Below are positions 839-54,517 of a stretch of 64,000 nt of DNA, piece by piece. Numbering within the stretch: the stretch's first letter is position 1; every line of letters starts with the position of its first letter. This DNA is from Planctomycetes bacterium UBA1146. GTDB taxonomy: Bacteria > Planctomycetota > UBA8108 > UBA1146. The DNA lies in contig DCAA01000026.1 of the NCBI GenBank assembly GCA_002311345.1, positions 214,829 to 278,828 of the forward strand, in the 5' to 3' direction. The notes under the pieces are model-generated. The model did not search any database. It worked only from the letters and a program-made list of their open reading frames with translations, and was not told the DNA's origin. The position numbers and the translations under genes are program-made.

Positions 839-841
839 GAG

Positions 842-3511: not shown

Positions 3512-3990
3512 CCTGAAACCACCCGCTGGTCATCATTTTCCGACTGGATCCGTTTTGCGAAGCGAGTACTTGTCTCGTCATCAACGATCCGCTCACCCAT
3601 CTTGACGATCCGTTTAAGACTCTCTTCTCTCCTTCGATCTTGTAGATTTTCGACAATCCGGTAGCGATTGACTGCCACCTCGACCTGCTCTCGAATTTCA
3701 TCAGCAGCTGTAGCAAGTTGATCTGCAAGCTCTGCGTTCATCTTCGCTTCATTCCTTAATCTCGAGAGGTAATGGCGATGTACCAGCAACTGCTCGATGT
3801 CAATTCCAGCGTGATCCGATGCACGTATCGAGTCGATCACTGCATGGTGTTCGATTTCGGACTCTCGTATCCGCGCTTGTTGCAAATGAAGTTCTCGAAC
3901 ACGGCGGTACAACTTCGAGAGTTCTACATCCATCTCAGATTTCCTGAGGCGAAGCAGTGCATCGAGGCGGGAAGCGGATTTTGACATCAC
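3508..3990 (-). CDS. fliJ: Flagellar export chaperone/stalk protein FliJ
   Basis: 160-aa all-helical, charged coiled-coil protein immediately downstream of fliI; 4-nt overlaps on both sides. Confidence 0.6.
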   Translation of the reverse strand: MMSKSASRLDALLRLRKSEMDVELSKLYRRVRELHLQQARIRESEIEHHAVIDSIRASDHAGIDIEQLLVHRHYLSRLRNEAKMNAELADQLATAADEIREQVEVAVNRYRIVENLQDRRREESLKRIVKMGERIVDDETSTRFAKRIQSENDDQRVVSG

Positions 3991-5309
3991 ATGCCCTTCC
4001 TACAGGTGCCTCTGGAAATCTCGATTACCCGATTCCGTGTCTCGAAAAAGTCACTCGTTTCTTCAGGTTTCTGTCGCAGTAGTTGTTCAATCTGCGGAAG
4101 CGAATCGATGGCCTCGTCAGATCGCTTGTCATGCCCACGGACATAAGCACCGAGGCGCAACATGTCTTCGATCTCTCTGTGAATGGCAACCTTCTCGACC
4201 AATGACCGGGCGGCTTCTAGATGTTGTTCGTCAACCACGGAGTTCATGGTTCTGCTGGTACTGGAGCAGGGATCGATCGGAGGAAACCAACCCTTGTTGG
4301 CGAGATCCCTCGACAACCAGATCTGGCCATCGAGGATTCCACGGACGGAGTCACCGATGGGATCGTGCTGATCGTCGCCCTCGACCAATACCGAGTAGAA
4401 TGCCGTGATACTGCCATCCACTCCTGGCCCGGTTCTCTCGAGCAGCTTCGGGAGCATCGCGAATACACTCGGGGTGTAGCCCCGAGTGGTCGGTGGTTCT
4501 CCTGCGCAAAGCCCCACTTCACGCTGCGCGAGAGCAACACGCGTGATGGAGTCAACCAGCAACAGCACATCTTCTCCGCGATCCCGAAACCACTCGGCGA
4601 TGGATGTAGCGACCCTTGCCGCTCTCAAACGCATCACTGCCGCTTCGTCTCCGGTCGCCACCACAACAACACTTCGAGCCAGCCCCTCTGGTCCAAGATC
4701 TCTCTCGATGAACTCTCGGACTTCTCGACCTCGTTCTCCAACCAGAGCAATCACTCTTACCGGCAATGCGGTGTTTCGAGCGATCATGCCCAGAAGAGTT
4801 GATTTCCCCACTCCACTACCAGAGAAGATGCCGAGGCGTTGTCCAACTCCCACGGTCAGTATCGAATCGAGTGCGCGAACTCCCGTATGTACAGGTATGC
4901 GGATCTTCTGACGTTTGAGCGCCGGAACAGGGACATTGTTGATGGGCACCTTGTCTTTGATGGGTATGGGACCCAGTCCATCGATCGGAACCCCTCGCGC
5001 ATTCACGACCCTCCCGAGCAGATGGTGAGAAACCGCAACACAAGGAATCTCACCGTCGTGAATCACTTCATCTCGTGGAGCAATTCCTTCGCTTCCATCC
5101 TCGGGTAGCAGATGCGTTCTTCCCTCGTCAAAACCCACCACTTCCGCAATCACACGATTCCCATCGCGAGTCACGATGGTGCACTCAGCCCCAACTGGCA
5201 GTGCAAGCCCTTGCGCCTCGACAATGACACCGACGACACGGACCACTGCGCCACGAACTCGGATGAGTTCATCCAGGTTCACCGAATTCAGCGCGGAGAT
5301 CAGATTCAT
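3987..5309 (-). CDS. fliI: Flagellum-specific ATPase FliI
   Basis: Walker A GSGVGKST, F1/V1-like ATPase core, 440 aa. Confidence 0.9.
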   Translation of the reverse strand: MNLISALNSVNLDELIRVRGAVVRVVGVIVEAQGLALPVGAECTIVTRDGNRVIAEVVGFDEGRTHLLPEDGSEGIAPRDEVIHDGEIPCVAVSHHLLGRVVNARGVPIDGLGPIPIKDKVPINNVPVPALKRQKIRIPVHTGVRALDSILTVGVGQRLGIFSGSGVGKSTLLGMIARNTALPVRVIALVGERGREVREFIERDLGPEGLARSVVVVATGDEAAVMRLRAARVATSIAEWFRDRGEDVLLLVDSITRVALAQREVGLCAGEPPTTRGYTPSVFAMLPKLLERTGPGVDGSITAFYSVLVEGDDQHDPIGDSVRGILDGQIWLSRDLANKGWFPPIDPCSSTSRTMNSVVDEQHLEAARSLVEKVAIHREIEDMLRLGAYVRGHDKRSDEAIDSLPQIEQLLRQKPEETSDFFETRNRVIEISRGTCRKGM

Positions 5310-6125
5310 CTATTTCTCCTGTGTATCCTGGATCAGTGCAGCCTCGATCAAATCGAGTTGTATTTCTATTCCCAGATCCACACTTCCTGTGGCACTTCGA
5401 ACACGACATCCGCCACGAACGATCGACTCCACTCCCATCACCTCGGCACCCTCGGCTCCCTGTATCTTTTGGCCGAGAGTCGGTAGAAACTCGATGACTG
5501 TCGTCAAGTCGACAGGATTCACTTCGATCTGTATCTTGCGTCTGTCACCGATTCTCTGGATTGCCAGTTCGATGTTCTCGGTGACGAGTTGGGGGAATTC
5601 GACGATCTCTCTCCTGAGAATGCGTTCGGCGATCCCCCGAGCCAGTGCAACCGTATCTCGACGGATTTCATCGATGGTGAGTTTCCAGCAACAGGTGAAC
5701 TCATCGAGGACCTTCTCGAGCAACTGGGGCACCGAACCACAAGTATCTCCCAGCAGGGTCCTCGCCTGCTCCTGGATGAGAACATCCGCTTCACGCCTGC
5801 TCTCCTCGAGACCCTTTTGCATTCCTTGGGAAAATCCGGATTCAACACCTTCCCTGCGTCCAGCCGCTAATCCGCGCAAGCGTGCCTCTTGCTCGATCTC
5901 TGCCACTCGCTGGTTGGCTTCCGAGATCTTGCGACGAACGTGCTCATCTGTCTCTTTCCTGGCCGTCTCGATCGCGGCCGTCAATTCGTTTCCCTCCTGA
6001 ACCAGTTTCTTGCGCAAATCTGCGTATGCAGCCTGAAGAGCATTCAGTTGTTGCCGCGCCGACTCGACAGAACACTCATCTTGAGTGCTCCCGGTACCGG
6101 GTTGAGAGAACACGGGGTCACTCAT
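5310..6125 (-). CDS. fliH: Flagellar assembly protein FliH
   Basis: Charged coiled-coil N-terminus plus FliH/SctL C-terminal domain; sits between fliF and fliI. Start chosen at the internal ATG (MSDPVF…) that overlaps the fliF stop by 4 nt. Confidence 0.7.
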   Translation of the reverse strand: MSDPVFSQPGTGSTQDECSVESARQQLNALQAAYADLRKKLVQEGNELTAAIETARKETDEHVRRKISEANQRVAEIEQEARLRGLAAGRREGVESGFSQGMQKGLEESRREADVLIQEQARTLLGDTCGSVPQLLEKVLDEFTCCWKLTIDEIRRDTVALARGIAERILRREIVEFPQLVTENIELAIQRIGDRRKIQIEVNPVDLTTVIEFLPTLGQKIQGAEGAEVMGVESIVRGGCRVRSATGSVDLGIEIQLDLIEAALIQDTQEK

Positions 6126-8077
6126 GACGATTGAACCTCCTGAGAGCGATCTCCCTCGCGATTGCGTTCGATCAGGTCCGCAAGATTGGGATCCGTGGCT
6201 CGAATATCTTCGAGAACGGATTGATCCACTTCCGCTGGACTGGGAACGGTACTCACAAAGGACGGTAGGGAAATTCCACTCGAGCAAACAGTGTTAGAAC
6301 TTTTGAACAGATCGAGTGCCGCCATGGCATCCTCGATGATATCTGGATCGAGAACTCCTACCTCCTGGATCACTTCTCCAAGAACTGCCAGTTCGTCCGA
6401 TCCCAGTTGCTGGAAGATCTGTTCGCGATTTCCACCCTGATCCAGAATTAACAACGCCAGCACATCACTACCTGGTAGTTCTTCTCTGGTGTCGGAGAGC
6501 ACCTGACGCAGAATCGTGACCGATTGGGTCACGGTGAGATTTCGAATCGTCTCCATCGATTGGTCGTAGGAGGCTTGATTCTCTTCATTCACATAGGTGC
6601 TGATGGCCTCCTGGATCCCGGCAACAGAAGAGGCTCCGGCGACCCGGAAGCCCTGGATAGCGGCCTCTCGGGCAGTATCCGTCGGACCATCACGGAGCAT
6701 GACGAAAACCGAGATGACCCCGAAGAAGACCAGGACGAAGAAGGGGAAATTGTTCTTCTGGCTACCACTAGCGACATCAAACCCGACAACCGCAGCAGAA
6801 GCGGCAGCGACCAGGCCGAATCTGACCGGGAACACACGAGCCTCGATCTCGGTGCCTGACCCCAGGTGAACCCTCAGATGCGATTCTATTCCGCTGGCGA
6901 CCTCCCGGGTAAACCCGCGTAGAGCAAGACGAGTTTCGGGAGTCTCCTGGTATCCACGGCCAGCACTCGAGGTATTTCCCGCAAGTCCGAAATTGCCCTT
7001 GAAGTTCTCAGTGGCGAGCACCAGCGCCTTGTCACGATCGAGCATGACCGTGACGGCAACCGTGTCGACTACATTCATTACTGGATCGGATTCAACATAT
7101 GATGGGATCTGCTGAGCGGTTGCACGAGTGAGTACGGTGTCTGCAAATTGAGAGGAAACCGGAGCGAGATTTGAAACCTGTTCCTGGAAGTCGTAAACCC
7201 CCCGAACAACCGGGAATCGAGGTTCGATTAATCCAGGATCCTCTACTGGTACTTGCAGACTGACATCCACCGTAACCCGATACATCTCTTCAGAAAAGAT
7301 GGATGCAAGGTATCTGGAAACGTACTCCTCCACCTTTTTCTTCTTGTCAGCAACATCCCCGGTGGTCAATTTTGGATTGACGAGATCGTAGTAGTGACCA
7401 TACGTGTCGGTGAGGATGATATTGTCGAGGGTGATCGAATAAGCTCCCGAAACATGGAGCCCGATCGCGCGTGCAACTTGCTGGCTGATTCCTGCCTGAC
7501 GAATATCTTCATCGAGTTGAACCTGAACGCTCACGCCATTGATCTTGCGATTGGACCCGATGACTACACCCGCCGTGGAACGGCTAGGAGTCACACTCAC
7601 CGAGTAAATCCCATCGAGTCGTGCAAGATCTTCCTCGAGTTTCAAGATCTGAGACCGCTCCCACCTCTGCTCTCTCTGACGTGTAGTGCCCAGAATGGAA
7701 TCCGTCTGGCGAACCCAGCTGAAAGGATCCTCACTCACTCCGGGACCAGGAACCCCCTGAATCATGGAGAGAACCTGACCGATGTTTTTCCTCGCAACCT
7801 GGATCGCCCCTTCAGGTGAGAAGCGAAATTCCAGGTTCTCACCTCGGAGATTTTCGACGAATTGGGCCTGCTGTTGCGATTCTCCCTCCGCGAAGGGGAT
7901 CTCTACCCAGTTCGTCGTTCCCAGATTTGTGAAGGCAAAGTAAGCGGCAATAAAGACGAAGATCACCGCGAAGGCTCTTCCTCCAGCCCCGAGTCCCCCC
8001 CAGAAATTACCCAGGTCGAAGGACGACCCCACCGGACCGCGATCAAATCTATTCTGATTCGAATCCTGATTCCCCAT
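6122..8077 (-). CDS. fliF: Flagellar MS-ring protein FliF, 651 aa, with an unusually long C-terminal cytoplasmic region
   Basis: N-terminal TM at aa ~35-55, periplasmic ring-building-motif region (RBM), second TM (FPFFVLVFFGVISVFVML) at aa ~443-460, then ~190 cytoplasmic residues. Confidence 0.85.
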   Translation of the reverse strand: MGNQDSNQNRFDRGPVGSSFDLGNFWGGLGAGGRAFAVIFVFIAAYFAFTNLGTTNWVEIPFAEGESQQQAQFVENLRGENLEFRFSPEGAIQVARKNIGQVLSMIQGVPGPGVSEDPFSWVRQTDSILGTTRQREQRWERSQILKLEEDLARLDGIYSVSVTPSRSTAGVVIGSNRKINGVSVQVQLDEDIRQAGISQQVARAIGLHVSGAYSITLDNIILTDTYGHYYDLVNPKLTTGDVADKKKKVEEYVSRYLASIFSEEMYRVTVDVSLQVPVEDPGLIEPRFPVVRGVYDFQEQVSNLAPVSSQFADTVLTRATAQQIPSYVESDPVMNVVDTVAVTVMLDRDKALVLATENFKGNFGLAGNTSSAGRGYQETPETRLALRGFTREVASGIESHLRVHLGSGTEIEARVFPVRFGLVAAASAAVVGFDVASGSQKNNFPFFVLVFFGVISVFVMLRDGPTDTAREAAIQGFRVAGASSVAGIQEAISTYVNEENQASYDQSMETIRNLTVTQSVTILRQVLSDTREELPGSDVLALLILDQGGNREQIFQQLGSDELAVLGEVIQEVGVLDPDIIEDAMAALDLFKSSNTVCSSGISLPSFVSTVPSPAEVDQSVLEDIRATDPNLADLIERNREGDRSQEVQSS

Positions 8078-17812: not shown

Positions 17813-20212
17813 ATGAAGAAGATCGATCAGTTGTTTCTGAAAGCCGCCCACAAGAAAGGGCTGCTCGATGACGCAGGAGTGACACAGATTGCAGATTCCC
17901 TGACCGAAGAGGGAGATGCAGCCTCTGCTGCGGTCGCGGCTGGCTTGATGACCCAGGGGCAGTCGCAACGACTTCTCACCAGCATCGAGTCCTCGGTGCC
18001 ACCCGAAGGAATTCCAGGATACGAAATCCTTTCTCCGATCGGTAGGGGTGCTACCAGTACTGTGTGGAAGGCACGGCAAGAATCTCTAGGAAAGATCGTT
18101 GCGCTGAAGATCTTATCGACCTCCATCTCGAGCACGACCCAACCGGAACAATTGATCTCGGAGGCACGAAATGCTGCCCTGCTCAATCATCCCCACATCG
18201 TTCATGCACTCGATGCTGGAGTCTCGAATGGAAATTGCTGGTTCGCGATGGAACTCGTCGAGGGAGAAACTCTCCAGCAACAACTGACACGTAGAGGAGC
18301 ACTCTCCGAACGTGAAGTGATTGAACTGGCACTTTGTTTGACCAAGGGTCTTGCGCATGCCCACAATGCAGGACTTCTGCATAGAGATCTGAAGCCCGCA
18401 AATATCCTGATTTCCGAAGATGGTATCCCCAAGATCACAGATCTCGGACTCGCTCTCGCCGAGCATGAAGTGATGGAACTCGATAGTTCCGAGAAAAGGA
18501 AAGGTACTCCTCATTACATCTCTCCTGAGCAGATAAAAGGCGAGACTCTCGATGTACGTACTGATCTCTACTCGCTTGGTGCAACCCTGTATCACTGCCT
18601 CACCGGACAACCTCCTTTCCAGGGAAAGACGAACCACGAAATCCTGAAAAAGCACATTCAGGAAGAAGTGATCCCCGTCGCTACCATTTCTTGTAAGGAA
18701 ACACCTCTCGATGCCATCGTCGAGAAACTCCTTTCGAAGACGCCAGATCAACGATTCGCAACCGCAGACCAGTTGATCGCAGCGCTCGAAAATGCATCGG
18801 GCAACGAAAGCACGGGAACTCCCACCGCTCCTCGACGAGGCCGATCCAAGATCCACGTGATCTCTGCAACAAACAGAAAGAGGGTCGTGGGAGGCGCCTC
18901 CAGAGCATCCCTCCACAGTCGCAAGACCATGATGACGAAGATCGGGATCGGTGCTGGTCTTGTCATCTCAGCACTACTGATTCTCTCCGCTTTTTCCAAG
19001 GCGAATGAAGGATCTCCCGATTTCGGGACGACTCTCGCTGACCACAGGTCGTTGATAGCCCAGCAAAAAATAGAAAAACGAATGGACGAATCGGAAAAGG
19101 ACAGGAAACGTCAAGAGGAGTCCGCACAGACGCTGCTCGATTCCATCCTGGCTCAGGATCAGGAACTGCGAATTCGGGCTCTTCGAAAAGCACTACGGTC
19201 TTACGGCGCAACACGAGTTGCAGTACAGATGACCGTTGAGCTGGATCGAGCCCAGGGTGAAATTGTCCAGTCCCGGCAGGCAGATGCACGGACCATCCTG
19301 GAAGAGGCCCGTACGATGGCCTCCGCTGGAAAACTGTGGGGCGCGGTAAAGCTACTCGATGAGAGACCACGATCTGCTCGACGCGATCAGGACCTCAATA
19401 ATGAGATCGAAATATTGCTCTCTGTCTGGGAAGAAGAAATCGATTCTCGATTTCTGCAGGACCGACAAAAGATCGATTTTCTGCGCAGCAAGAGAGAATA
19501 CAGCGAGGCCCTCACACTCATCGACGAGATCGAGCAATACGCTGATCCAGACACCATTGCGGAATTGACAGGTCTGCGGGAACAGATCATCGCAGCACGT
19601 ACTGAACTTGCTCGTGTGGAGGCAGAACGGCGGCGAACAGAGGAACTGCGCAAGTACATGGAGATCTGGCCCCGGTACAAGGATCTCGCCCTCGAGCGAG
19701 ATTTCAAGGGGATGATCAGTGTCTCGGTGGGCCTGGAGGCTGAACTGATCGTGGCAGAAGTGAAGAACCGGATCGAAATCGATCTGCTTGCTTTTGGGGT
19801 GCTCGACAAATTCATCAAGGAGGCACTACAGGAACTTCGAGAGAAGGGTGAGGACGGCAAGGAAGTTGTCGTGGAACGCATCCCACTCGGAGAAAGCACC
19901 CGCAACCGCAAAGATCGGGGTGTGGTGGATCGCATCGATACAGTTCACGTGTGGATTCGCCTCACCGCCGAGCGAGCTGTAATTCCGCTAAAAATCAGCG
20001 AGATCACCGATGCGTTCCTGTTCGATCAGGTCGCCGAGAGACATGGCAGTAGTAGCCCCGATTACCTGATCCCCATGGGGATTCTATCGATATATCGAGG
20101 GCTCGAGGATGTCGCGGAAGAGAACTTCAAAATCGTCGAAGAAAAAGGAACGCGCCCCGATACATGGATCGAACTTCTGAACTGGGTGAAAAAGAACGTC
20201 ACTAACCCCTGA
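17813..20212 (+). CDS. Membrane-spanning Ser/Thr protein kinase with large C-terminal extracytoplasmic coiled-coil-rich domain
   Basis: Hanks kinase motifs (GRGATSTVWKA…VALK, HRDLKPANIL, DLGLA, SPEQ); a TM helix (IGIGAGLVISALLILSAF) about aa 380; ~400 aa follow. Confidence 0.85.
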   Translation: MKKIDQLFLKAAHKKGLLDDAGVTQIADSLTEEGDAASAAVAAGLMTQGQSQRLLTSIESSVPPEGIPGYEILSPIGRGATSTVWKARQESLGKIVALKILSTSISSTTQPEQLISEARNAALLNHPHIVHALDAGVSNGNCWFAMELVEGETLQQQLTRRGALSEREVIELALCLTKGLAHAHNAGLLHRDLKPANILISEDGIPKITDLGLALAEHEVMELDSSEKRKGTPHYISPEQIKGETLDVRTDLYSLGATLYHCLTGQPPFQGKTNHEILKKHIQEEVIPVATISCKETPLDAIVEKLLSKTPDQRFATADQLIAALENASGNESTGTPTAPRRGRSKIHVISATNRKRVVGGASRASLHSRKTMMTKIGIGAGLVISALLILSAFSKANEGSPDFGTTLADHRSLIAQQKIEKRMDESEKDRKRQEESAQTLLDSILAQDQELRIRALRKALRSYGATRVAVQMTVELDRAQGEIVQSRQADARTILEEARTMASAGKLWGAVKLLDERPRSARRDQDLNNEIEILLSVWEEEIDSRFLQDRQKIDFLRSKREYSEALTLIDEIEQYADPDTIAELTGLREQIIAARTELARVEAERRRTEELRKYMEIWPRYKDLALERDFKGMISVSVGLEAELIVAEVKNRIEIDLLAFGVLDKFIKEALQELREKGEDGKEVVVERIPLGESTRNRKDRGVVDRIDTVHVWIRLTAERAVIPLKISEITDAFLFDQVAERHGSSSPDYLIPMGILSIYRGLEDVAEENFKIVEEKGTRPDTWIELLNWVKKNVTNP

Positions 20213-20812
20213 TCAATTATCGAGTAGAGGCGAGATCCGCTCCCAGTCACCGGGGTCATCGATATCTTCCAGGAGAAGTGCGTTTTCGCTGACGACGTGT
20301 TGAATCCGCATGTCATCGGACGAAATCAGGGCTCGGAGATGGGGAGGACCAGCCTTTTCCAGCAACCTCCTTGCCTTCTCACGTCTCAGCAACAGCGGAT
20401 GCCCTCGCTTCAGCTGGTGAGATACCACCCATGCATCAAAAGCATCTCCATCGCGCCGGTAAGACTCGATGAGATCGGAGACATCTCCCGCCCGCACACC
20501 CGCTACATCGACCGGATGAATCAGAATCGCGTCCCACTCGCCAGGAAATCTCAGGGCAACACGGATGCTACTGATCGGTCCATCTGTGGGATCCTCATTG
20601 ACGATCGACAGGACTCCTATTCGTTTCGATTCCGTCTCGATCAGCTCCTGGTGAGTCCCCCCGCAAACAACCAACAACTCATCACACCCCCCGGAAGAAA
20701 GAGCAAATGACACTCTCTCCAGTACCGTACGATCCTGGTACTCCAGTAGTGCCTTGGGTGAACCAAATCGACTCGACTCTCCGGCAGCGATGATGACTCC
20801 ACGGACCCTCAC
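20213..20812 (-). CDS. MobA/MocA-like nucleotidyltransferase (NTP_transf_3 fold)
   Basis: GVIIAAGESSRFGSPKALL… motif. Proposed GTG start at 20812 overlaps the upstream DinG-like gene's TGA as GTGA; the ORF track's longer start at 20878 lies inside the upstream gene. Confidence 0.65.
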   Translation of the reverse strand: MRVRGVIIAAGESSRFGSPKALLEYQDRTVLERVSFALSSGGCDELLVVCGGTHQELIETESKRIGVLSIVNEDPTDGPISSIRVALRFPGEWDAILIHPVDVAGVRAGDVSDLIESYRRDGDAFDAWVVSHQLKRGHPLLLRREKARRLLEKAGPPHLRALISSDDMRIQHVVSENALLLEDIDDPGDWERISPLLDN

Positions 20813-23367
20813 TGGAGCGACTCCTCGATCTCCTCTTCTGCGAAGAAGGCCTCGAGAGAGGTTCGAACATCCACCCATGGGCCCTCCGACCGACTGCAGT
20901 CCGGAAGACTATCGATGAAGCGTTTGCCATAGGGTCGCCGGACGATCCTGGTATCGGCGATCACTACCACTCCACGATCATCGACGGTACGAATCAATCG
21001 TCCAAATCCCTGCCTCAGTCCGAGAACCGCCCTCGGCAGGGCCAGGTGAGCAAACGGACTCTTGCCGCGGGATTTCAGTTCCTCGGCACGACCTTGTTCG
21101 AGAGGATGATGAGGTATTCTGAAAGGGAGCCTCGTGATGAAGACACAAGAGAGCGCTCCTCCGGGTACATCGATCCCTTCCCAGTACGACTGGTTTCCCA
21201 GCAATACCGCTCGCCCGGATGCAACAAATCTGCGCAGCAGTTCACTCCTGGGCTGCTCCCCTTGAACCAACAACGGCATACCAAGTGCCTGAAAACTGTC
21301 GCGCACACGTTGGGCTATACGCCGTAAGAATCTGTGAGAGGTAAACAGTCCGAAGGTTCTTCCGCTGGCCACTCGCGCCGTATCCACGATCATCTCAGCG
21401 ATACGCTGCTCGTAACCTGATCTGTCTGGTTCGGGAACATCCGTGGGAAGACCGAGCAAGACCTGCCTCTTCCATTCGAAAGGAGATGAGAAATTTTCCA
21501 GTCGAAGTCTCCCCCTCTCGACCCGTTCCCATCCGAGCCGATCCGCGAGAAAACTCCACGACTCTCCCACCCTGAGCGTCGCACTGGTCTGGATCACCGT
21601 GGCAACTGGCCGATACAGGTGTTCTGCAAGCAGTTCATCGACACGTAGAGGCGCCGCTTTCACGACGATCTGCTTGTGAGGTTGGGTGGTCATCTCGACC
21701 CACGGCTGGATTCCTCCTGCTGCCCCGAGGACAAAATCGATTGAAGAGATCTGCTCCACCACTGACCGGATCGCCGCCCTCAATTCCGCAACTGCAGCCT
21801 GAAACTCAACCTCGGGCTCGAACGGGGACTCCTCCAGCAATTCCGCACATCGCTGCAACAACCCCCGGAGATCATCCAGGCTGTCTTTTGCATCGATGAG
21901 GGGAGGGGAGACCACCGTCATCGGGAGCATTCCATCTCGTTCACCGATCCGCGCCATCAATGAACCATCACGTCCTTGGGTATCCCCCACGAGTTGTGCC
22001 GCGTCGCGAATTCGGTTCTCGAGTCTCTCCAGCGCCGTTTCGATCTCCTGTCGAACCGATTTCACACGAGGCATCACTTCCATCGAGAGTAGTTCATGCG
22101 CCTCTGCTTGCTGATGTCGGCCGAGATGACCTCTTAGCCACGGGATACGACCTCTCTCTTGGCTGTTTTTCTTGCGAGGAGAAACCAGCCTACCGAGCAC
22201 CTGGAGGAGACCTTTCCGTGAAACTTCCGCACCGAGGTGATGGCAGGCGACTTCCTCCAGATGGTGTGCCTCGTCGAAGATGATTCGCTGATATCCCGGA
22301 ATCACCAGGTCGCTATCGAAATCCCCGGAAGAACGACGCAGTTTGAGATCAGCAAAGAGAAGATGATGGTTGACCACCACCACATGGGCGCCAAACGACT
22401 TGCGACGCGCCTCGTAATAGAAACAGGTGCGGTAATGCGGGCAACGCGCCTTGAGAGATTGATCGGATGTAGACTGGAAGTCGGACCAGATCTCGTCAGG
22501 AACCTCCCCCGGCATCTCTTGCCTAGTCCCCTGCTTCGCTTCGCGCAGACGATCGATGACATCAGCAACCCAACTCTCTCGCTCCTCGCCTTCAGCAAAG
22601 ATCTCGGGTTCGGATGCAACCTGTTGTGTTTTTCGACGACAGGCGTAATTGCCCCGACCCTGGATGAGAGCGTATCGAAAATCGATGCCGAGAACCCTAT
22701 GGAGTGTGGGGAGATCGCGATGAACCAGTTGTTCTCCAAGCGGAATTGTGGCAGTCGAGACCACAACGCGACTGTGGTTTTTCACCGCCCACAGGATTGC
22801 CGGCACCAGGTAGGCATAGGACTTTCCGACTCCTGTTCCCGCCTCGAGTGCCGCAACATCTCCATCATTGAGAGCACGAGCTACTGATTTCGACATCTCA
22901 ACCTGGCCAGGTCTCTCCTCGAAATCTGGAATGGAACTGGAGAAGACCCCGCCGGAACAGAAGATATCTTCGATCTCCTTTTCCTCCACCGGAGATTCTT
23001 CCTGCTCAGGAAATGGTTCGACAACCCGGTTCACCCTGCCGCCGTCATTACTGACGATGAAAAAACCCAGTCGACGAGCACCCGCTTCCGCTGCGATGGA
23101 GAGATCTGCCGGACTCGGCGTCAGATCGCCGCCGGGATGGTTGTGGATGAGAACCTGGAACCCCTCCTCTGCCCGAGACAGAAAAACGGGTACTGCAGTA
23201 GACGACCCGCGCGCCACTACCAGGGTCTCGTCGAGCAAACCTTGATCATCGATGCGACCAAGGAAGAAGACCTCGTTATCGCCCGCTTTCTCGATCTCGT
23301 CGGAGATTTTCTGGCGGATCCCAGGAGCAAAGAGAGGAGTGCTGTCGAGTCCTTCGGTCCAGCTCAA
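20809..23367 (-). CDS. Fusion protein: N-terminal RadC-like JAB/MPN domain plus DinG/Rad3-family (XPD-like) DNA helicase
   Basis: N-terminal E…HNHPGGDLTPSPAD (JAMM HxHx7Sx2D) in a RadC-like context; then Walker A LEAGTGVGKSY, DEAH box IIFDEAHHLEE and C-terminal helicase motifs; 852 aa. Confidence 0.8.
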   Translation of the reverse strand: MSWTEGLDSTPLFAPGIRQKISDEIEKAGDNEVFFLGRIDDQGLLDETLVVARGSSTAVPVFLSRAEEGFQVLIHNHPGGDLTPSPADLSIAAEAGARRLGFFIVSNDGGRVNRVVEPFPEQEESPVEEKEIEDIFCSGGVFSSSIPDFEERPGQVEMSKSVARALNDGDVAALEAGTGVGKSYAYLVPAILWAVKNHSRVVVSTATIPLGEQLVHRDLPTLHRVLGIDFRYALIQGRGNYACRRKTQQVASEPEIFAEGEERESWVADVIDRLREAKQGTRQEMPGEVPDEIWSDFQSTSDQSLKARCPHYRTCFYYEARRKSFGAHVVVVNHHLLFADLKLRRSSGDFDSDLVIPGYQRIIFDEAHHLEEVACHHLGAEVSRKGLLQVLGRLVSPRKKNSQERGRIPWLRGHLGRHQQAEAHELLSMEVMPRVKSVRQEIETALERLENRIRDAAQLVGDTQGRDGSLMARIGERDGMLPMTVVSPPLIDAKDSLDDLRGLLQRCAELLEESPFEPEVEFQAAVAELRAAIRSVVEQISSIDFVLGAAGGIQPWVEMTTQPHKQIVVKAAPLRVDELLAEHLYRPVATVIQTSATLRVGESWSFLADRLGWERVERGRLRLENFSSPFEWKRQVLLGLPTDVPEPDRSGYEQRIAEMIVDTARVASGRTFGLFTSHRFLRRIAQRVRDSFQALGMPLLVQGEQPRSELLRRFVASGRAVLLGNQSYWEGIDVPGGALSCVFITRLPFRIPHHPLEQGRAEELKSRGKSPFAHLALPRAVLGLRQGFGRLIRTVDDRGVVVIADTRIVRRPYGKRFIDSLPDCSRSEGPWVDVRTSLEAFFAEEEIEESLQ

Positions 23368-23453: not shown

Positions 23454-23494
23454 GAGAAAACTCCCTGCCAGGAATCGAGATTCCTGGCAGGGAG
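23454..23494 (-). terminator. Rho-independent terminator for the upstream secreted-protein gene
   Basis: Perfect 34-nt palindrome CTCCCTGCCAGGAATC-GA-GATTCCTGGCAGGGAG (23461-23494), followed on the minus strand by TTTTCTC. Confidence 0.65.
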
Positions 23495-23533: not shown

Positions 23534-25288
23534 TTAACACCCGCCAGTCGGCGTAACGCAGTCAAGGGCATCAGTGTCAGTCGGATCGATTCCGCAGTTA
23601 TCTCCCGGTGGCGGGGCATCTGGCCCACCCGTGAAGAGGAAACCGAGCAGGTAGATCGCATCGGCGATGTTCACTGCGCCATCGTCGTTTACATCTGCAG
23701 CATCGAAACAACCGGGAGCAGTGCCATTGGTGAAGAGGAATCCGAGCATGAAGATCGCATCGGCGATGTTCCTGGCTCCATCAGAGTTGACATCGCCTCG
23801 ACGGAACTCGATACCGCCTGGATTACAGATGGCAGCGCAGTCCGGATCATCGCAATCGATCAGACCATCCCCATCATCATCGACGCCGTTGGAGCAATCC
23901 TCGACAGGGCCACCGGGGTCCGGAGGCGAACTGTGGTACAACTGGCAAGTGATACCGGCAAATGTGAACACCGCCGAGTAGGACTCGAAGACTCCGTCCA
24001 TGTCGGCATCGACATCCGGAAGAATGCCGAAAGCAGTGAGCAAGTCCACCAGCGTCCCCTGGAAGGGAGCCGGAGCCGGCTGTGTCTCCAGGAATGCCTG
24101 GGTGAGGAACGCTTCAATCTCGTCGCTCTGGAATTGGTAGGTTCCTGCAAAAGGTCCGGGGAAGAAATCGGCTTCCACGGTCAGGCCCTTGAGCGGGATT
24201 CCCGCCACGTAGATCGTTCCCGGACCGGCGGTCATATGGCTATCGACGATGGTGCCACCGGGAAAACTCGAGGTAGGATCTCCCGTGATCGGATCGTAAC
24301 CAGCTGGATCGACCACGAACTCGTTGAATCCCGAGGCATCGTTGGTCGGATCCTGGTCGAGGTCGAAACCACCATGAGCACTCAGGGTGATGTCGTCATC
24401 ATTGGTGTAGGTCGGATCATCCAGTTCTGTCACTTCCAGCAGGAAGGGGAACTCGGCCAGATTCGAGGCGAGAATATCGTTCAGTCCCGCAGTGATGGTC
24501 GGGTCCGATCCTAGAATCCCACCCACCACGATCTGCTCAGTTGCCACAAAGCCTTGTGTGGAAGGAATGTAGGAGTAGTAGAGGGTGCAAGAGATACCGG
24601 CAAAGGTGAAGACAGCAGAGTAAGACTCGTTGTTTCCGTCATTGTCGGCATCGATATCCGGCAGAATGCCGAAAGCAGTCAGCAAGTCCACTATGCTGCC
24701 GGTGAAGGGTGCCGGAGCCGGCAGTGTTTCCAGGAATTCCTGGGTGAGGAACGCCGAGGTCTCGGTGCTCTGGAACTCGTACACTCCTGGGGTGCCAGTT
24801 TCCGTGAAATCCGCCTCCACGGTCAGATCATTGAGTGGAATCCCTCCCACGATGATGGTTCCCGGTCCGGCGGTCAGATGGCTATCGACGAGGGTCCCAT
24901 TGGGGAAACTCGAGATCGCATCTCCCGTGGCCGGATCGTAATCGAGGGGATCGATCACAAACTCGTTCTCGCCAGAACCATTGTTGGTATTATCACCGTC
25001 AAGGTCGATTCCCCCGAAAACATTCAGGGTGATGTTGTCGTCGTTGGTATAGGTCGGATCATCGAGATCCGCCACTTCAAGAAGAAAAGGAGAGCTCAAC
25101 AGTCGAGCAGCAAGAAGGTCGTTCAAACCTGCAGTGATGGTCGGATCCGATCCGAGGATCCCTCCCACTACGATCTGCTCGGTCGCCACGAGCCCAGGAC
25201 GACCCAATTGCGCGAAACTCTCGTTTGGAGCCAGAATCGTGAGAACAAAGGCAACTGGAACAAGTGCAAAGATGGTTCTACGGATCAT
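23534..25288 (-). CDS. Secreted protein with two tandem ~215-aa repeat domains, a Cys/Asp-rich motif and two dockerin-type (EF-hand-like) repeats
   Basis: Signal peptide; repeats beginning G[LF]VATEQIVVGGILGSDPTITAGLND…; CSNGVDDDGDGLIDCDDPDC; GDVNSDGARNIADAIFMLGFLF and ADVNDDGAVNIADAIYLLGFLF; GGAGG Shine-Dalgarno. Confidence 0.7.
   Translation of the reverse strand: MIRRTIFALVPVAFVLTILAPNESFAQLGRPGLVATEQIVVGGILGSDPTITAGLNDLLAARLLSSPFLLEVADLDDPTYTNDDNITLNVFGGIDLDGDNTNNGSGENEFVIDPLDYDPATGDAISSFPNGTLVDSHLTAGPGTIIVGGIPLNDLTVEADFTETGTPGVYEFQSTETSAFLTQEFLETLPAPAPFTGSIVDLLTAFGILPDIDADNDGNNESYSAVFTFAGISCTLYYSYIPSTQGFVATEQIVVGGILGSDPTITAGLNDILASNLAEFPFLLEVTELDDPTYTNDDDITLSAHGGFDLDQDPTNDASGFNEFVVDPAGYDPITGDPTSSFPGGTIVDSHMTAGPGTIYVAGIPLKGLTVEADFFPGPFAGTYQFQSDEIEAFLTQAFLETQPAPAPFQGTLVDLLTAFGILPDVDADMDGVFESYSAVFTFAGITCQLYHSSPPDPGGPVEDCSNGVDDDGDGLIDCDDPDCAAICNPGGIEFRRGDVNSDGARNIADAIFMLGFLFTNGTAPGCFDAADVNDDGAVNIADAIYLLGFLFTGGPDAPPPGDNCGIDPTDTDALDCVTPTGGC
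23924..25195. repeat. Intragenic tandem direct duplication (two units of ~640 bp) inside the secreted-protein gene
   Basis: Protein repeats aa 32-246 and 247-455 are highly similar; antisense ORFs 23933-24514 and 24554-25369 mirror each other. Confidence 0.5.
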
Positions 25289-38916: not shown

Positions 38917-39846
38917 GTCAGCTGCTCGATCTGGGCCATGCCTACCCCCCTGTGTACCTCTCCAGGCAACGGCCACGATCCCGCAGACAACCAGTGGACT
39001 GCCGATCCAGAACACATCGGGAGGTGTCTCCCCCAACATCATCCAGACCAGCAAAGGAGCACCAGCCACCTCACCGAGGAATGCCGTGGAAACCACCGAT
39101 GGAGGCAGATAATTCAAGGCAGCATTGAGAGGAGTGTGCCCCAACAAGGTCGGAAAGAGAGCCAGCAGAAGCGCAAGGGACCATTCCTTGCCACTCTCGG
39201 GTGCATGCAGTTCTCCGGTCGTCAACAGGTACGCCGTCAAGAGCAAAGCAGCTACTCCGTATGCACGACAGGTGTAAATCGAAGTGGGAAGATCACGGCT
39301 GGCCGCCCTGCCCGCGAAGATGTATCCGACAAAGGCAAAGGAACCGATCAGCGCGAGAACGACACCCAGGGTCGGATCTCTTTGTTCGAAATCGCCAGCA
39401 CCATCACCTGCATTCAGTGCGAGTAGCATGGTCCCCGTCAAGGCGACCATCACTCCAAGAAGGCGTATTCCATCTGCGCGAGCCTGTTTTCGGGCGACTT
39501 CGATGACGTATACGATCACTGGATGGACATAGACCAGTACCACGGAGATCGCCACGGACAGATGGGCCAACGAAGCCATCCACGCACCGAAGTGCACCGC
39601 GAGACAGGCGCCCGAGATGAGAACTGCTCGCCCACTCGTTTTCAGGGCAACTCTATGGCCACCCCTTCTCGACAACATCCACAACACGGGAACTGCGATG
39701 GCGAGTCTACGCAGTGCAAGGTTCACCTCTTCGCTATCAGAGAGACGAATCCACAACGTCGATGTCGAGATCCCGATGATCCCGATGATCAGCAGCCACC
39801 AGACATGGCTCCCTACTGCCTTCAATTTCGGGACTTCCTGGTTCAA
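38905..39846 (-). CDS. EamA/DMT-family permease
   Basis: 10-TM, 313 aa, two EamA-like halves; last gene of the co-directional block. Confidence 0.8.
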   Translation of the reverse strand: MNQEVPKLKAVGSHVWWLLIIGIIGISTSTLWIRLSDSEEVNLALRRLAIAVPVLWMLSRRGGHRVALKTSGRAVLISGACLAVHFGAWMASLAHLSVAISVVLVYVHPVIVYVIEVARKQARADGIRLLGVMVALTGTMLLALNAGDGAGDFEQRDPTLGVVLALIGSFAFVGYIFAGRAASRDLPTSIYTCRAYGVAALLLTAYLLTTGELHAPESGKEWSLALLLALFPTLLGHTPLNAALNYLPPSVVSTAFLGEVAGAPLLVWMMLGETPPDVFWIGSPLVVCGIVAVAWRGTQGGRHGPDRAADLVP

Positions 39847-41423
39847 GAGTTACCGGACTCCTGCCAGTGACCATCGATCCTGCGCATTCCGGATGCTCCC
39901 GTGCGCAACTCATCCGGGAGTGCACCATCGGGGAATCCCTGCCAGCAAACGGGACGCAGGAACCTGTCCATCGCAGCGGAACCTACCGAGGTCCAGCGCG
40001 AATCGGTGGTCGCAGGCCAGGGACCGCCATGTTGCATCGCTTCCCCGACCTCGACCCCGGTGGGGAAGGAGTTGAAGACCAGTCGACCAGCACGGTCCTC
40101 GAGCAGATGCAGAAGGGGCTTCATCTGTGACAGTTCCTCCTCGGACGCGTGTACCGTCGCCGTCAATTGCCCCTCGAGAACTCGTGCAACTTCCAGAAAC
40201 TCCTCAGGAGAATTGCACTCAACAAGCAAGGCTCCCGGCCCGAACACCTCACTCTGCATCGCTGGGTCCGCGATGAAACTGGCGAAGTCTACTCTCAACA
40301 AGGAAGCCCCCGCCGCGCAGGAACCGTCGCCTGGGGGACCTCTTTCAATCACTTCGACCCCGCCTCGGGTAACGAGTTGCTCCACCGCATCGCGATAACC
40401 CTGCTGGATTCCCAGATGGAGCATCGTTCCAGCCGGTTCACTACAGAGCGACTGACTCAGTTCATCCCTGAACGCCGAGGCATTTTCGTCGGATACGATC
40501 ACGACGATCCCGGGACAGGTACAGAACTGTCCAACTCCAAGGCGAACGCTCGCTGCAAGCCCTTCGGCAATCTCCTGACGCCGGGTTTGCATCGCTTCCG
40601 GCAGGACGAAGACAGGATTGGCGCTTCCCATCTCGGCAAATACATCGACGGGAACCTCTCGATCTCTGGCCAATCGCCACAAAGCAATTCCTCCCGCACG
40701 AGAACCGGTGAAGGCGACGGCGCGAATACCCGGGTGCTGAACCAACTGTGTTCCCACATCAAAGGATTCCCCTTGAAGCAGGCTGAACATCCCTGCAGGG
40801 AATCCGACATCGCGAACCGCATCTTGCAATGCCCGACCTACCAGTTCACAAACACCCGGATGGGCCGGATGCCCTTTCGCAACGACAGGACAACCCGCCG
40901 CCCAGGCGCTGGCGGTATCTCCGCCTGCGACTCCGAAAGCCAACGGGAAATTACAGGCGCCAAATACCGCCACGGGACCGATGGCCCGCATCCCGAGGCG
41001 AAGATCCGGCCGAGGGATGGGCTGCCGGTCGGGAAGCGCGGTCTCGATGACGGGCTTCTGAAACGGACCTTCTCGTACCACCGAGGCAAAAAGTCGAAGT
41101 TGATGACAGGTGCGACCCCGCTCACCCTCGAAACGCGCCTGCGGAAGACCGGTTTCCTGCATTCCCCGGGCGGTGATCTCGGAGCCCAACGCTTCGATCC
41201 GTTCGGCAGCGGCTTCCAGTAATCTCGCCCGCTGCTCGGGATCGGACGCTGATCTGCTCTCGTGGACCGAGAGTGCCGCCAAGACAGCAACGTCGATGTT
41301 CTCGGCGGTTGCCTCCGCAAATGTAGGCTCCAGTTCGAGGCCACTGACCGGGTTGATCGCCCGGAGGGTTCCCTCTCCCTCGATCTCCTCACCTGCGATG
41401 AGGTGAACACCCTGGATGCTCAT
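39843..41423 (-). CDS. NAD(P)-dependent aldehyde dehydrogenase (alpha-ketoglutarate-semialdehyde dehydrogenase-like)
   Basis: ALDH family motifs (…FTGSRAGG…, …EMGSANPVFVL…), 526 aa. Confidence 0.85.
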   Translation of the reverse strand: MSIQGVHLIAGEEIEGEGTLRAINPVSGLELEPTFAEATAENIDVAVLAALSVHESRSASDPEQRARLLEAAAERIEALGSEITARGMQETGLPQARFEGERGRTCHQLRLFASVVREGPFQKPVIETALPDRQPIPRPDLRLGMRAIGPVAVFGACNFPLAFGVAGGDTASAWAAGCPVVAKGHPAHPGVCELVGRALQDAVRDVGFPAGMFSLLQGESFDVGTQLVQHPGIRAVAFTGSRAGGIALWRLARDREVPVDVFAEMGSANPVFVLPEAMQTRRQEIAEGLAASVRLGVGQFCTCPGIVVIVSDENASAFRDELSQSLCSEPAGTMLHLGIQQGYRDAVEQLVTRGGVEVIERGPPGDGSCAAGASLLRVDFASFIADPAMQSEVFGPGALLVECNSPEEFLEVARVLEGQLTATVHASEEELSQMKPLLHLLEDRAGRLVFNSFPTGVEVGEAMQHGGPWPATTDSRWTSVGSAAMDRFLRPVCWQGFPDGALPDELRTGASGMRRIDGHWQESGNS

Positions 41424-42415: not shown

Positions 42416-42493
42416 GATCCTACCAGCGCAGGAAAGGCGTCACATCCGCTGATGGAAAGTGAATTCGTGCCGGGGCCAGGAGCACCCTCGAGC

Positions 42494-45101: not shown

Positions 45102-45153
45102 CGGCTCGCTCCGAACTGAAGTGATCCGGAGGAAGATACCCGATCAGAAAGCC

Positions 45154-52208: not shown

Positions 52209-52241
52209 CCTGCACCGCTGGTGATCTGGATCAAGGATCGA

Positions 52242-54511: not shown

Positions 54512-54517
54512 CAGTGG

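What the first reader, a model, noticed from the sequence alone, without database searches (positions are those of the whole stretch)
20213..23367. Operon encoding a RadC-like JAB domain fused to a DinG/XPD-family helicase, translationally coupled to a MobA-like nucleotidyltransferase
The 852-aa protein has an N-terminal RadC-type JAMM/MPN+ motif (HNHPGGDLTPSPAD) followed directly by a full DinG/Rad3 helicase (Walker A, DEAH, C-terminal motifs). Known DinG N-terminal fusions are DEDD exonucleases; a JAB/RadC module in that position is not a described architecture to my knowledge. Its stop overlaps (GTGA) the start of a MobA/MocA-fold NTP-transferase. This is an unexpected partner for a DNA helicase and hints at a nucleotide-modifying or defence-type function, not molybdenum cofactor metabolism.
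Basis: partly seen in the sequence, partly recalled or inferred. Interest (0 to 1): 0.6.

Follow-up and report, generated by a model that had tools for sequence, protein, structure and literature searches.

The report
Known RadC-DinG helicase with MocA-like neighbour
This is a chromosomal DNA-repair-type helicase carrying an N-terminal RadC/JAB zinc-hydrolase domain, a fusion already described in the literature though never studied experimentally, and in Planctomycetota it sits in a two-gene operon with a MocA-like nucleotidyltransferase that looks like lineage-specific gene order and not a new defence or nucleotide-modifying system.

Summary
An 852-aa ORF (20809-23367, minus strand) encodes a RadC-type JAB domain followed by a full DinG/YoaA-like helicase. 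Its TGA stop overlaps the GTG start of a 199-aa MobA/MocA-fold NTP transferase (20213-20812).

The novelty claim fails. Iyer et al. 2011 (PMC3239186) reported this fusion, naming planctomycetes. [quoted passage not shown]

The gene pair is conserved, but only within Planctomycetota:
- It is present in 9 of 11 loci sampled, at helicase identity from 100% down to 39%.
- The RTGA overlap and an upstream GGAG recur in the closer relatives.
- The linked transferases form one clade.
- None of 23 RadC-DinG loci from other phyla has the transferase. All 7 Gemmatimonadota loci carry an FAA-hydrolase gene in that slot instead.

The neighbourhood is housekeeping (ATP synthase, MetH, peptidase, flagellar export) and holds no defence genes or mobile-element marks.

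Best reading: this is a vertically inherited repair helicase whose JAB domain acts on the unwound substrate, probably as a nuclease. The MocA-like gene is most likely a clade-specific operon mate, and a functional link is possible but unproven.

Interest is low to moderate.

The parts
23455..23494 (-). Intrinsic-terminator-like hairpin (17-bp stem, 4-nt loop) followed by UUUUCUCAU, downstream of the 584-aa secreted-protein gene. It marks the upstream boundary of the helicase transcription unit.
   Evidence: Sequence read. RNA fold gives -37.7 kcal/mol, z = -5.4, with 0 of 200 shuffles folding as well. The consensus scan did not list it.
20809..23367 (-). Gene for the 852-aa RadC-like DinG helicase, TTG start.
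22993..23367 (-). N-terminal RadC-type JAB/MPN+ domain, about residues 1-125.
   Evidence: AF2 pLDDT 90.1. Foldseek top hit is RadC 2qlc, followed by JAMM peptidases. Profile against PDB sequences hits 2qlc at 1.5e-6.
23104..23145 (-). JAMM metal-binding motif HNHPGGDLTPSPAD (H75, H77, S85, D88). The upstream catalytic Glu32 is encoded at 23272-23274.
   Evidence: Present in all 118 top homologues that retain the N-terminus. These columns are invariant in alignment A1.
22819..22845 (-). Walker A / motif I, EAGTGVGKS (residues 175-183).
   Evidence: Invariant in A1.
22423..22641 (-). Fe-S cluster domain, residues 243-315. C243, C309 and C315 are present. The second ligand position is Ser304 instead of Cys.
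   Evidence: This position is Ser in 80, Thr in 2 and Cys in 35 of 117 homologues.
22264..22275 (-). DEAH box / motif II (residues 365-368, within FDEAHHLEE).
   Evidence: D365, E366 and H368 are invariant or nearly invariant in A1.
20899..21390 (-). Helicase_C_2 domain (motor domain 2, residues 660-823).
   Evidence: Pfam 6.9e-40.
20821..20826 (-). GAGGAG, a Shine-Dalgarno-like element 8 nt upstream of the transferase start, inside the end of the helicase coding region.
   Evidence: A GGAG or GAGGAG recurs at the same distance in the orthologous junctions of L083, L085, L087, L096, L099 and L102.
20809..20812 (-). GTGA stop/start overlap (helicase TGA, transferase GTG).
   Evidence: RTGA is conserved in L082, L083, L085, L087 and L096.
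20213..20812 (-). Gene for the 199-aa MobA/MocA-fold NTP transferase of a Planctomycetota subfamily linked to the helicase.
   Evidence: NTP_transf_3 at 2.6e-31. Best NCBIfam models are the DVU_1551 family and MocA, both below their cutoffs. Best PDB matches are the M. tuberculosis MobA/MocA-related proteins 2waw and 2we9 at about 5e-10. Conserved AAGxSxRxGxxK, hPVD and RRGHP motifs.

Best explanation
The 852-aa protein is an orthologue of the already-described "RadC-like DinG" subgroup. It is a YoaA-like XPD/DinG-family SF2 DNA helicase with an N-terminal RadC-type JAB/MPN+ zinc-hydrolase domain. It is encoded as a vertically inherited chromosomal housekeeping gene of a marine Planctomycetota genome.

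Likely mechanism:
- Inferred from the family: the two motor domains bind ssDNA and translocate 5'->3' on ATP, unwinding forked or nascent-strand substrates as E. coli YoaA does.
- Shown here: the JAB domain has a complete E...HxH...S..D metal site.
- Inferred: the JAB domain acts on what the motor exposes. The most likely activity is a metal-dependent nuclease that trims the displaced strand. This follows the non-homologous-displacement argument that the JAB domain occupies the position of the DnaQ exonuclease in ExoDinG.

The downstream gene:
- It encodes an apparently catalytically intact MocA-like small-molecule nucleotidyltransferase.
- Shown here: it is co-transcribed and translationally coupled with the helicase.
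- Inferred: the coupling is a Planctomycetota-specific operon arrangement retained by descent. It is not a mechanistic partnership or a defence module.
For: Family membership:
- NCBIfam's best model is YoaA (2.3e-166), followed by DinG.
- The 118 top homologues that retain the N-terminus keep both the architecture and the JAMM motif.
- The JAB-domain profile finds 573 clusters (50% identity level) at E <= 1e-10, nearly all about 810-920 aa with the domain at the N-terminus.
- Fold and profile both match RadC.
- The literature already describes the fusion, including in planctomycetes.

Housekeeping context:
- Neighbours are ATP synthase, MetH, an M1/M28 peptidase, a Ser/Thr kinase, flagellar export genes, Fpg and TopA.
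- GC content is even across the locus.
- The ATP-synthase-to-helicase linkage persists in distant Planctomycetota.

Operon:
- There is a terminator hairpin upstream.
- The RTGA overlap and upstream GGAG are conserved.

The pairing is lineage-specific:
- It is present in 9 of 11 Planctomycetota-clade loci.
- It is present in 0 of 23 RadC-DinG loci from other phyla.
- All 7 Gemmatimonadota loci carry an FAA-hydrolase gene in the same slot. Other lineages carry an acyltransferase, a GGDEF protein, an epimerase or ThrE.
- A more distant homologue of the transferase (29% identity, Lacunimicrobium album) is a textbook MocA inside a Fer2-FAD-MoCoBD-XdhC operon.
Against: - No member of the RadC-like DinG subgroup has been studied experimentally, so helicase polarity and JAB chemistry are inferences.
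- The helicase-transferase adjacency outlasts every other adjacency in the neighbourhood. It holds down to 39% helicase identity while both flanks change.
- The linked transferases form their own clade.
- All 8 metagenome loci with a transferase at >=48% identity have the helicase directly upstream. These three points are what a real functional link would also produce.
- The transferase scores far below the MocA equivalog cutoff (99 against 186 bits), and no molybdoenzyme gene lies in the 64-kb window.
Confidence: 0.72

Rival explanations
1. The helicase and the MocA-like transferase form a true two-component system. The transferase would make or attach a nucleotide-linked molecule that the RadC-DinG enzyme needs or acts upon, for example a nucleotidylated cofactor, a nucleotide signal or a DNA/nucleotide modification.
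For: - The adjacency is kept in 9 of 11 Planctomycetota loci down to 39% helicase identity, while both flanking genes change.
- The RTGA overlap and SD-like GGAG are conserved.
- In the reverse test, all 8 loci with a close transferase have the helicase directly upstream.
- The linked transferases are monophyletic in a neighbour-joining tree.
- The transferase is below every NCBIfam equivalog cutoff.
- Iyer et al. noted an archaeal association between a JAB domain and a nucleotidyltransferase.
Against: - The partner is absent from all 23 RadC-DinG loci outside Planctomycetota, by both tblastn and HMM.
- It is absent from 2 of 11 loci inside the clade. For one of them, P0031, the contig ends 0.5 kb downstream of the helicase gene.
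- In one genome an AhpC gene sits between the two genes, and two others have gaps of 92 and 378 nt.
- Gemmatimonadota show an equally strict pairing with an unrelated FAA hydrolase (7 of 7). So a conserved metabolic operon mate is normal for this helicase without implying shared function.
- No fusion between the two proteins was seen among the listed hits.
Confidence: 0.15
2. The JAB domain is a peptidase, not a nuclease. The enzyme would remove proteins covalently trapped on DNA: the DinG-type motor runs into and unfolds the adduct and the fused JAMM metalloprotease cleaves it. This would be a single-polypeptide bacterial analogue of eukaryotic FANCJ plus SPRTN.
For: - The full peptidase-type E/HxH/S/D site is invariant.
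- FANCJ, a helicase of the same XPD/DinG family, unfolds DNA-protein crosslinks so that SPRTN can cleave them (Yaneva et al. 2023, as cited in PMC10505908).
Against: - There is no experimental evidence for any RadC activity.
- The Aravind-lab contextual analysis favours a nucleic-acid substrate, based on fusions to HhH, primase and ArdC domains and on displacement of a 3'-5' exonuclease.
- No ubiquitin-like or substrate-recognition module is present in the protein or among its neighbours.
Confidence: 0.12
3. The locus is an anti-phage defence module: a CasDinG-like or otherwise novel helicase system with a nucleotide-modifying partner.
For: - PADLOC type-IV DinG models hit the helicase (best 1.5e-120).
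- The adjacent kinase hits the PD-T4-6 kinase models.
- One orthologue has an EVE-domain gene downstream.
Against: - The PADLOC hits are generic family homology to a DinG helicase core and a Ser/Thr kinase domain.
- There are no cas genes, and no restriction-modification or Abi genes, among the annotated large ORFs of the window or in 11 orthologous loci. CRISPR arrays were not looked for.
- The gene order with ATP synthase is conserved in five of the loci, including three at about 39% helicase identity.
- Base composition is uniform.
- The transferase has no PADLOC hit.
Confidence: 0.02

Closest known systems
RadC-like DinG subgroup (Iyer et al. 2011, PMC3239186; 2025 review PMC11981726, section 3.8; model protein from Desulfuromonas soudanensis)
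   Same: - Same architecture: an N-terminal RadC-type JAB domain with conserved E, H, H and D, followed by MD1, the Fe-S domain, the Arch domain and MD2 of a YoaA-like helicase.
- Same length class, about 840-880 aa.
- Planctomycetes are explicitly listed among the host lineages.
- Homologues from Desulfuromonadales and KSB1 align over 97-98% of the query.
   Different: - The Planctomycetota clade, including this protein, has Ser instead of Cys at the second Fe-S ligand position.
- It carries a clade-specific MocA-like gene downstream. The review does not mention this gene: it contains no occurrence of MobA or nucleotidyltransferase.
E. coli YoaA (DinG-family Fe-S helicase that works with HolC)
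   Same: - It is the best NCBIfam model for the helicase part (2.3e-166).
- Same XPD/DinG core and Helicase_C_2 domain.
- The review reports a YoaA-like overall fold and a C-terminal alpha7 helix for RadC-like DinG.
   Different: - The score of 555 bits is below the YoaA equivalog cutoff of 680.
- YoaA has no N-terminal JAB domain.
- The review reports no HolC homologues in organisms that encode RadC-like DinG.
ExoDinG (DnaQ-family exonuclease fused to a DinG helicase; TIGR01407 / PRK07246)
   Same: - A hydrolase domain sits in the same N-terminal position on a closely related helicase.
- The helicase part matches these models (1.4e-96 and 1.2e-41).
- This parallel is the basis for the proposal that the JAB domain is a nuclease.
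   Different: The N-terminal domain has a JAB/deaminase-like fold, not the RNase-H-fold DEDD exonuclease. The query's match to these models begins at residue 148 (TIGR01407) or later, so its N-terminal domain does not match their exonuclease part.
Stand-alone RadC / YicR (Pfam PF04002; PDB 2qlc)
   Same: - Same fold.
- Same HNHPxGxxxPSxxD motif.
- It is the best PDB match by both sequence profile and fold.
   Different: - The domain here is a diverged subfamily. The single sequence scores below Pfam's gathering threshold, and the TM-score to 2qlc is only about 0.44-0.48.
- There is no N-terminal HhH module.
- The domain is covalently attached to a helicase.
MocA (CTP:molybdopterin cytidylyltransferase) and MobA
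   Same: - NTP_transf_3 fold.
- N-terminal AAGxSxRxG...K loop, hPVD motif and RRGHP motif.
- Sources annotate close relatives as MocA.
- A 29%-identical homologue sits in a genuine Mo-hydroxylase/XdhC operon.
   Different: - It scores 99 bits against the MocA cutoff of 186, and 35 bits against the MobA cutoff of 152.
- It forms a separate clade found directly downstream of the helicase, except in one genome where an AhpC gene is interposed.
- No XdhC or molybdoenzyme gene is nearby.

Membership tests
RadC-like DinG | N-terminal RadC-type JAB domain with the E...HxHx7SxxD metal site | tested here: met
   E32, H75, H77, S85 and D88 are invariant. The fold's top hit is RadC 2qlc. The profile hits 2qlc at 1.5e-6. 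The single-sequence Pfam RadC hit alone is sub-threshold.
RadC-like DinG | Complete DinG/XPD SF2 helicase core (Walker A, DEAH, Helicase_C_2) | tested here: met
   Pfam Helicase_C_2 at 6.9e-40, plus DEAD and DEAD_2. NCBIfam YoaA and DinG models. Walker A and DEAH are invariant in A1.
RadC-like DinG | Fe-S domain with the CCCC motif | tested here: inconclusive
   Three Cys are invariant (C243, C309, C315). The second position is Ser304 here and in 80 of 117 homologues, and Cys in 35. Whether a cluster still binds cannot be determined from sequence.
RadC-like DinG | Full-length homology to recognised members (Desulfuromonadales and deltaproteobacterial proteins) | tested here: met
   Desulfuromonadales, Geobacteraceae and KSB1 proteins align over 97-98% of the query at 36-39% identity.
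YoaA (NCBIfam NF053712 equivalog) | Score above the curated cutoff | tested here: not met
   555.2 bits against a cutoff of 680.
YoaA (NCBIfam NF053712 equivalog) | HolC partner in the genome | not testable with these tools
   Only 64 kb of the genome is available. The review reports no HolC homologues in organisms that encode RadC-like DinG.
CasDinG / type IV CRISPR Csf4 | Association with csf/cas genes and a CRISPR array | tested here: not met
   No cas-family Pfam hits among the annotated large ORFs of the window or in 11 orthologous loci. TIGR03117 scores 90.6 bits against a cutoff of 400. CRISPR arrays were not searched for.
MocA (TIGR03310) / MobA (TIGR02665) | Score above the equivalog cutoff | tested here: not met
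   MocA 99.1 bits against 186.45. MobA 34.9 bits against 151.85.
MocA (TIGR03310) / MobA (TIGR02665) | NTP_transf_3 fold with the nucleotide-binding and catalytic motifs | tested here: met
   PF12804 at 2.6e-31 over 156 of 160 profile positions. Invariant A10, G11, S13, R15, G17, K20, D102, H138, P139 and D183.
MocA (TIGR03310) / MobA (TIGR02665) | Genomic link to molybdoenzymes, XdhC or MoCo biosynthesis | tested here: not met
   None in the 64-kb window or in the orthologous loci. Whole-genome presence of a MoCo pathway is not testable here.

The most novel reading that the evidence does not exclude
In Planctomycetota the RadC-like DinG helicase and its translationally coupled, clade-specific MocA-like nucleotidyltransferase might work together in DNA-damage processing. 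For example, the transferase might supply a nucleotide-linked cofactor or signal. This clade has also replaced one Fe-S cysteine with serine. Separately, the JAB domain might be a DNA-protein-crosslink peptidase driven by the helicase, which would make the enzyme a one-protein bacterial analogue of FANCJ-SPRTN.
Probability: 0.12. Interest if true: 0.7.

Novelty: new member of a known kind. Interest (0 to 1): 0.27.

Why it matters
The architecture itself is not new, so the finding does not open a new category.

What remains of value is modest:
1. RadC-like DinG is a widespread repair-type enzyme: 573 clusters at 50% identity match the JAB-domain profile at E <= 1e-10. No experiment has been published on it. 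It is also the best natural test of the 15-year-old proposal that RadC JAB domains are nucleases and not peptidases.
2. The Planctomycetota branch adds two undocumented features. One is a conserved, translationally coupled MocA-like operon mate. The other is a Cys-to-Ser change at an Fe-S ligand.

If the transferase proved to be functionally linked, it would be an unusual helicase partner. The data here favour simple inherited gene order.

Tried and rejected
- Defence reading: PADLOC gives only generic DinG and kinase homology and nothing for the transferase. No cas, restriction-modification or Abi genes were found among the annotated ORFs of the window or the orthologous loci. Rejected.
- Horizontal acquisition: GC and skew are even across the locus. 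Synteny with ATP synthase is conserved in three of the loci with about 39% helicase identity. Rejected.
- Longer ATG start for the transferase (20878, 70-nt overlap): rejected in favour of GTG at 20812. The Pfam domain starts at residue 27 of the long form. The JGI call and all orthologues start at the RTGA position.
- Apparent loss of the transferase in the 73%-identical relative: this turned out to be a gene-calling miss. The ORF is there, with an HMM hit of 4e-68 and an ATGA overlap.
Only 23 of the 80 loci were RadC-DinG, and none came from the close Planctomycetota clade. These 23 were used as the out-group sample.
It was repeated with 7 closer sequences. That version samples only close relatives plus generic MocA-like genes, so it does not test the deep branches.
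- Sigma-70 promoter scan of the operon region: no hits, uninformative for Planctomycetota. The same scan missed the strong terminator hairpin, which was then found by eye and confirmed by folding.
- Literature search for RadC biochemistry since 2015: nothing beyond comparative-genomics papers.


Full report
**What is in the sequence**

On the minus strand, an ORF at 20809..23367 encodes 852 aa from a TTG start. A second ORF ends at 20213.

The junction reads CAGTGAGG. The helicase TGA lies at 20811-20809 and a GTG at 20812-20810. Starting at that GTG gives a 199-aa product. The window is part of JGI metagenome contig 3300003702|PicMicro_10000005 (372 kb), and the gene call there uses the same two genes with a 4-nt overlap.

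A GAGGAG lies 8 nt upstream of the GTG. The RTGA overlap recurs in the orthologous junctions L082, L083, L085, L087 and L096, and an upstream GGAG in L083, L085, L087, L096, L099 and L102.

Upstream of the helicase, the preceding 584-aa gene is followed by a 17-bp hairpin and a U-tract (-37.7 kcal/mol, z = -5.4). Downstream, the stop codon of a convergent Ser/Thr-kinase gene abuts the transferase stop codon (TGATCA). The unit is therefore a two-gene operon.

**Domain assignment**

- Pfam gives Helicase_C_2 (6.9e-40), DEAD and DEAD_2.
- NCBIfam's best models are YoaA (2.3e-166), then DinG, all below their equivalog cutoffs.
- The single-sequence Pfam RadC hit is weak: E = 0.0015, 18.9 bits against a cutoff of 22.1, over 21 residues.

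The JAB assignment rests on stronger evidence:

- All 118 top homologues that retain the N-terminus, down to 36% identity, carry HNHPxxxLxPSxxD at the same place.
- In a 33-sequence alignment E32, H75, N76, H77, P78, S85 and D88 are invariant. This is the complete JAMM E...HxHx7SxxD site.
- A profile of the domain hits the RadC crystal structure 2qlc at 1.5e-6, and AfJAMM weakly.
- An AF2 model of residues 1-138 has mean pLDDT 90.1. Its best PDB fold match is RadC 2qlc, followed by AF2198, CSN5 and Rpn11.

Walker A (EAGTGVGKS) and DEAH are invariant.

The second ligand position is Ser304 here. It is Ser in 80, Thr in 2 and Cys in 35 of 117 homologues.

**The architecture is already known**

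Iyer et al. [quoted passage not shown] They note that these helicases are close relatives of versions fused to a 3'-5' exonuclease. From that they infer, by non-homologous domain displacement, that the JAB domain may be a nuclease.

A 2025 review (PMC11981726) defines "RadC-like DinG" as one of ten DinG subgroups. [quoted passage not shown] No other held paper uses the term.

The family is large. The full-length query has 6721 hits at E <= 1e-10, many of which are plain DinG. The JAB-domain profile alone finds 573 cluster representatives at E <= 1e-10. Those listed are mostly 810-920 aa with the domain at the N-terminus, and the shorter ones are probably gene fragments.

**Is the MobA-like partner conserved?**

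Within the Planctomycetota clade the answer is yes. A same-strand NTP_transf_3 gene lies downstream of the helicase in these orthologous loci:

| Orthologue | Helicase identity | Arrangement |
|---|---|---|
| P0008 | 73% | gene caller missed it; HMM hit 4e-68; ATGA overlap |
| P0014 | 62% | 4-nt overlap |
| P0016 | 56% | 4-nt overlap |
| P0035 | 49% | 4-nt overlap, different flanks |
| P0065 | 40% | 92-nt gap |
| P0069 | 39% | 8-nt overlap |
| P0049 | 39% | 378-nt gap |
| P0077 | 39% | an AhpC gene interposed |

It is absent next to P0031, where an EVE-domain gene follows and the contig ends 0.5 kb later. It is also absent next to P0080. Counting the window, that is 9 of 11 loci.

In a reverse scan of metagenome contigs, all 8 loci with a transferase at >=48% identity have the helicase directly upstream. 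None of the 51 with a more distant MocA-like gene does.

In a neighbour-joining tree, all helicase-linked transferases fall into one clade, apart from other MocA-like proteins. The tree is crude and has no support values.

**Controls that limit the interpretation**

Of 80 genome loci recovered with the helicase alignment, 23 are RadC-DinG from Desulfuromonadales/Geobacter, Gemmatimonadota, Spirochaetes, Fusobacteria, Sumerlaeota, Terriglobia and PVC lineages. None has a relative of the transferase within 6 kb, by tblastn or by a subfamily HMM.

Each lineage has its own downstream gene instead:

- All 7 Gemmatimonadota loci carry an FAA-hydrolase-family gene immediately after the helicase.
- Others carry an acyltransferase, a PAS-GGDEF protein, an epimerase or ThrE.

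So a strictly conserved, functionally unrelated downstream gene is normal for this helicase within a phylum. This fits inherited operon structure better than a shared mechanism.

The wider Planctomycetota neighbourhood is also partly conserved, as ATP synthase - (MTHFR) - helicase - transferase - AhpC - B3_4.

A more distant transferase homologue, at 29% identity in Lacunimicrobium album, sits in a textbook Fer2-FAD-MoCoBD-XdhC-MocA operon. Sources annotate close relatives as MocA. The protein keeps the nucleotide-binding and catalytic motifs. It scores well below the MocA cutoff, at 99 against 186 bits.

**Context**

The 64-kb window encodes the following:

- flagellar export genes (FlhB, FliR, FliP, FliO, FliI, FliH, FliF)
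- a CNNM transporter and MetH
- an M1/M28 peptidase and a Ser/Thr kinase
- the operon itself and a 584-aa secreted protein
- the F-type ATP synthase and a Clp ATPase
- a putative hydroxyproline-catabolism cluster
- an iron-type ABC transporter
- Fpg and topoisomerase I

No defence, cas or mobile-element genes, and no molybdoenzyme genes, were found among the large ORFs annotated. Composition is even across the locus. PADLOC returns only generic type-IV DinG models for the helicase, generic kinase models for the neighbour and nothing for the transferase.

**Mechanism**

Shown here:
- an intact helicase core
- an intact JAMM metal site on a confidently predicted JAB fold
- an operon with translational coupling
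- clade-limited conservation of the partner gene

Inferred from family knowledge:
- 5'->3' translocation on ssDNA and YoaA-like unwinding of fork or nascent-strand substrates. YoaA is thought to expose 3' ends for nuclease removal.
- The JAB domain processing the exposed substrate.

I favour a nuclease role for the JAB domain, by analogy with ExoDinG. The structural neighbours are peptidases, so a peptidase role remains a live alternative. One example would be a DNA-protein-crosslink peptidase analogous to FANCJ-assisted SPRTN cleavage.

The transferase is most simply a MocA-like metabolic enzyme that shares a promoter with the helicase.

**Verdict**

- The domain and operon reading is correct.
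- The novelty claim is wrong.
- The defence or nucleotide-modification hint is unsupported.
- The conserved Planctomycetota operon and the Cys-to-Ser change are minor new details on an already-described, experimentally untouched enzyme family.

Noticed in passing
window 22453-22455 (codon for Ser304 of the helicase); homologues P0001-P0120: The second of the four canonical Fe-S cluster cysteines of DinG/XPD helicases is Ser here. It is Ser in 80, Thr in 2 and Cys in 35 of 117 RadC-DinG homologues. The Ser/Thr form seems confined to the branch closest to the query (P0001-P0075 and scattered later hits; the few that are named are Planctomycetota), the same clade that carries the MocA-like operon mate. 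No other conserved Cys is available as a fourth ligand.
   Followed up: partly
L007, L008, L009, L010, L012, L014, L017 (Gemmatimonadota loci), immediately downstream of the helicase: All 7 Gemmatimonadota RadC-DinG genes are followed on the same strand by an FAA-hydrolase-family gene of about 206-249 aa (Pfam PF01557, about 1e-62 to 1e-69). This is a phylum-specific conserved pairing that parallels the Planctomycetota MocA-like pairing.
   Followed up: partly
L082 6897-7496 (GCA_965661685.1, contig CBFIET010000131.1): The public gene call for this Planctomycetota MAG has a 128-aa antisense ORF where the MocA-like gene actually lies. The real gene gives an HMM hit of 4e-68 and has an ATGA overlap with the helicase stop. 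An annotation-only survey would undercount the pair.
   Followed up: yes
window 20210-20215: The convergent Ser/Thr-kinase gene (17813-20212, plus strand) and the transferase gene (minus strand) end back to back with no intergenic base (TGATCA). In L083 and L085 the two convergent genes overlap by 4 nt. There is no room for a terminator between them.
   Followed up: no
window 23534-25288 (minus strand): A 584-aa secreted-looking protein with no Pfam hit. By eye it consists of two tandem copies of a roughly 230-aa module, followed by a Cys-rich stretch and dockerin-like Asp-rich repeats (DVNSDGARNIADAI / DVNDDGAVNIADAI). A similar 559-586-aa gene with no Pfam hit precedes the helicase in L082 and L083.
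   Followed up: no
window 50-8077 (minus strand): A cluster of flagellar type III export and basal-body genes (FlhB, FliR, FliP, FliO, FliI, FliH, FliF).
   Followed up: no
window 39843-55471 (minus strand): A run of genes that resembles a hydroxyproline or D-amino-acid catabolic cluster: proline-racemase family, FAD-dependent DAO, DHDPS-family enzyme, aldehyde dehydrogenase, Fer2/pyridine-nucleotide oxidoreductase and DUF993. An Fe-type ABC transporter and an Nramp gene are interleaved.
   Followed up: no
L088 8567-9037: In one Planctomycetota orthologue (P0031, 51% identity) the gene overlapping the helicase stop encodes an EVE (PUA-like) domain protein instead of the transferase. The contig ends shortly after.
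   Followed up: no
L091 7610-8781: In a 9.18-Mb genome (P0077) an AhpC/Redoxin gene lies between the helicase and the MocA-like gene, with overlapping junctions on both sides. AhpC-family and B3_4-domain genes also lie within a few kb downstream in L089, L090 and L092 (AhpC alone in L093), which suggests an older conserved block.
   Followed up: partly
window 23455-23494: The consensus terminator scan did not report the strongest hairpin plus U-tract in the region (-37.7 kcal/mol). It was found by reading the sequence.
   Followed up: yes
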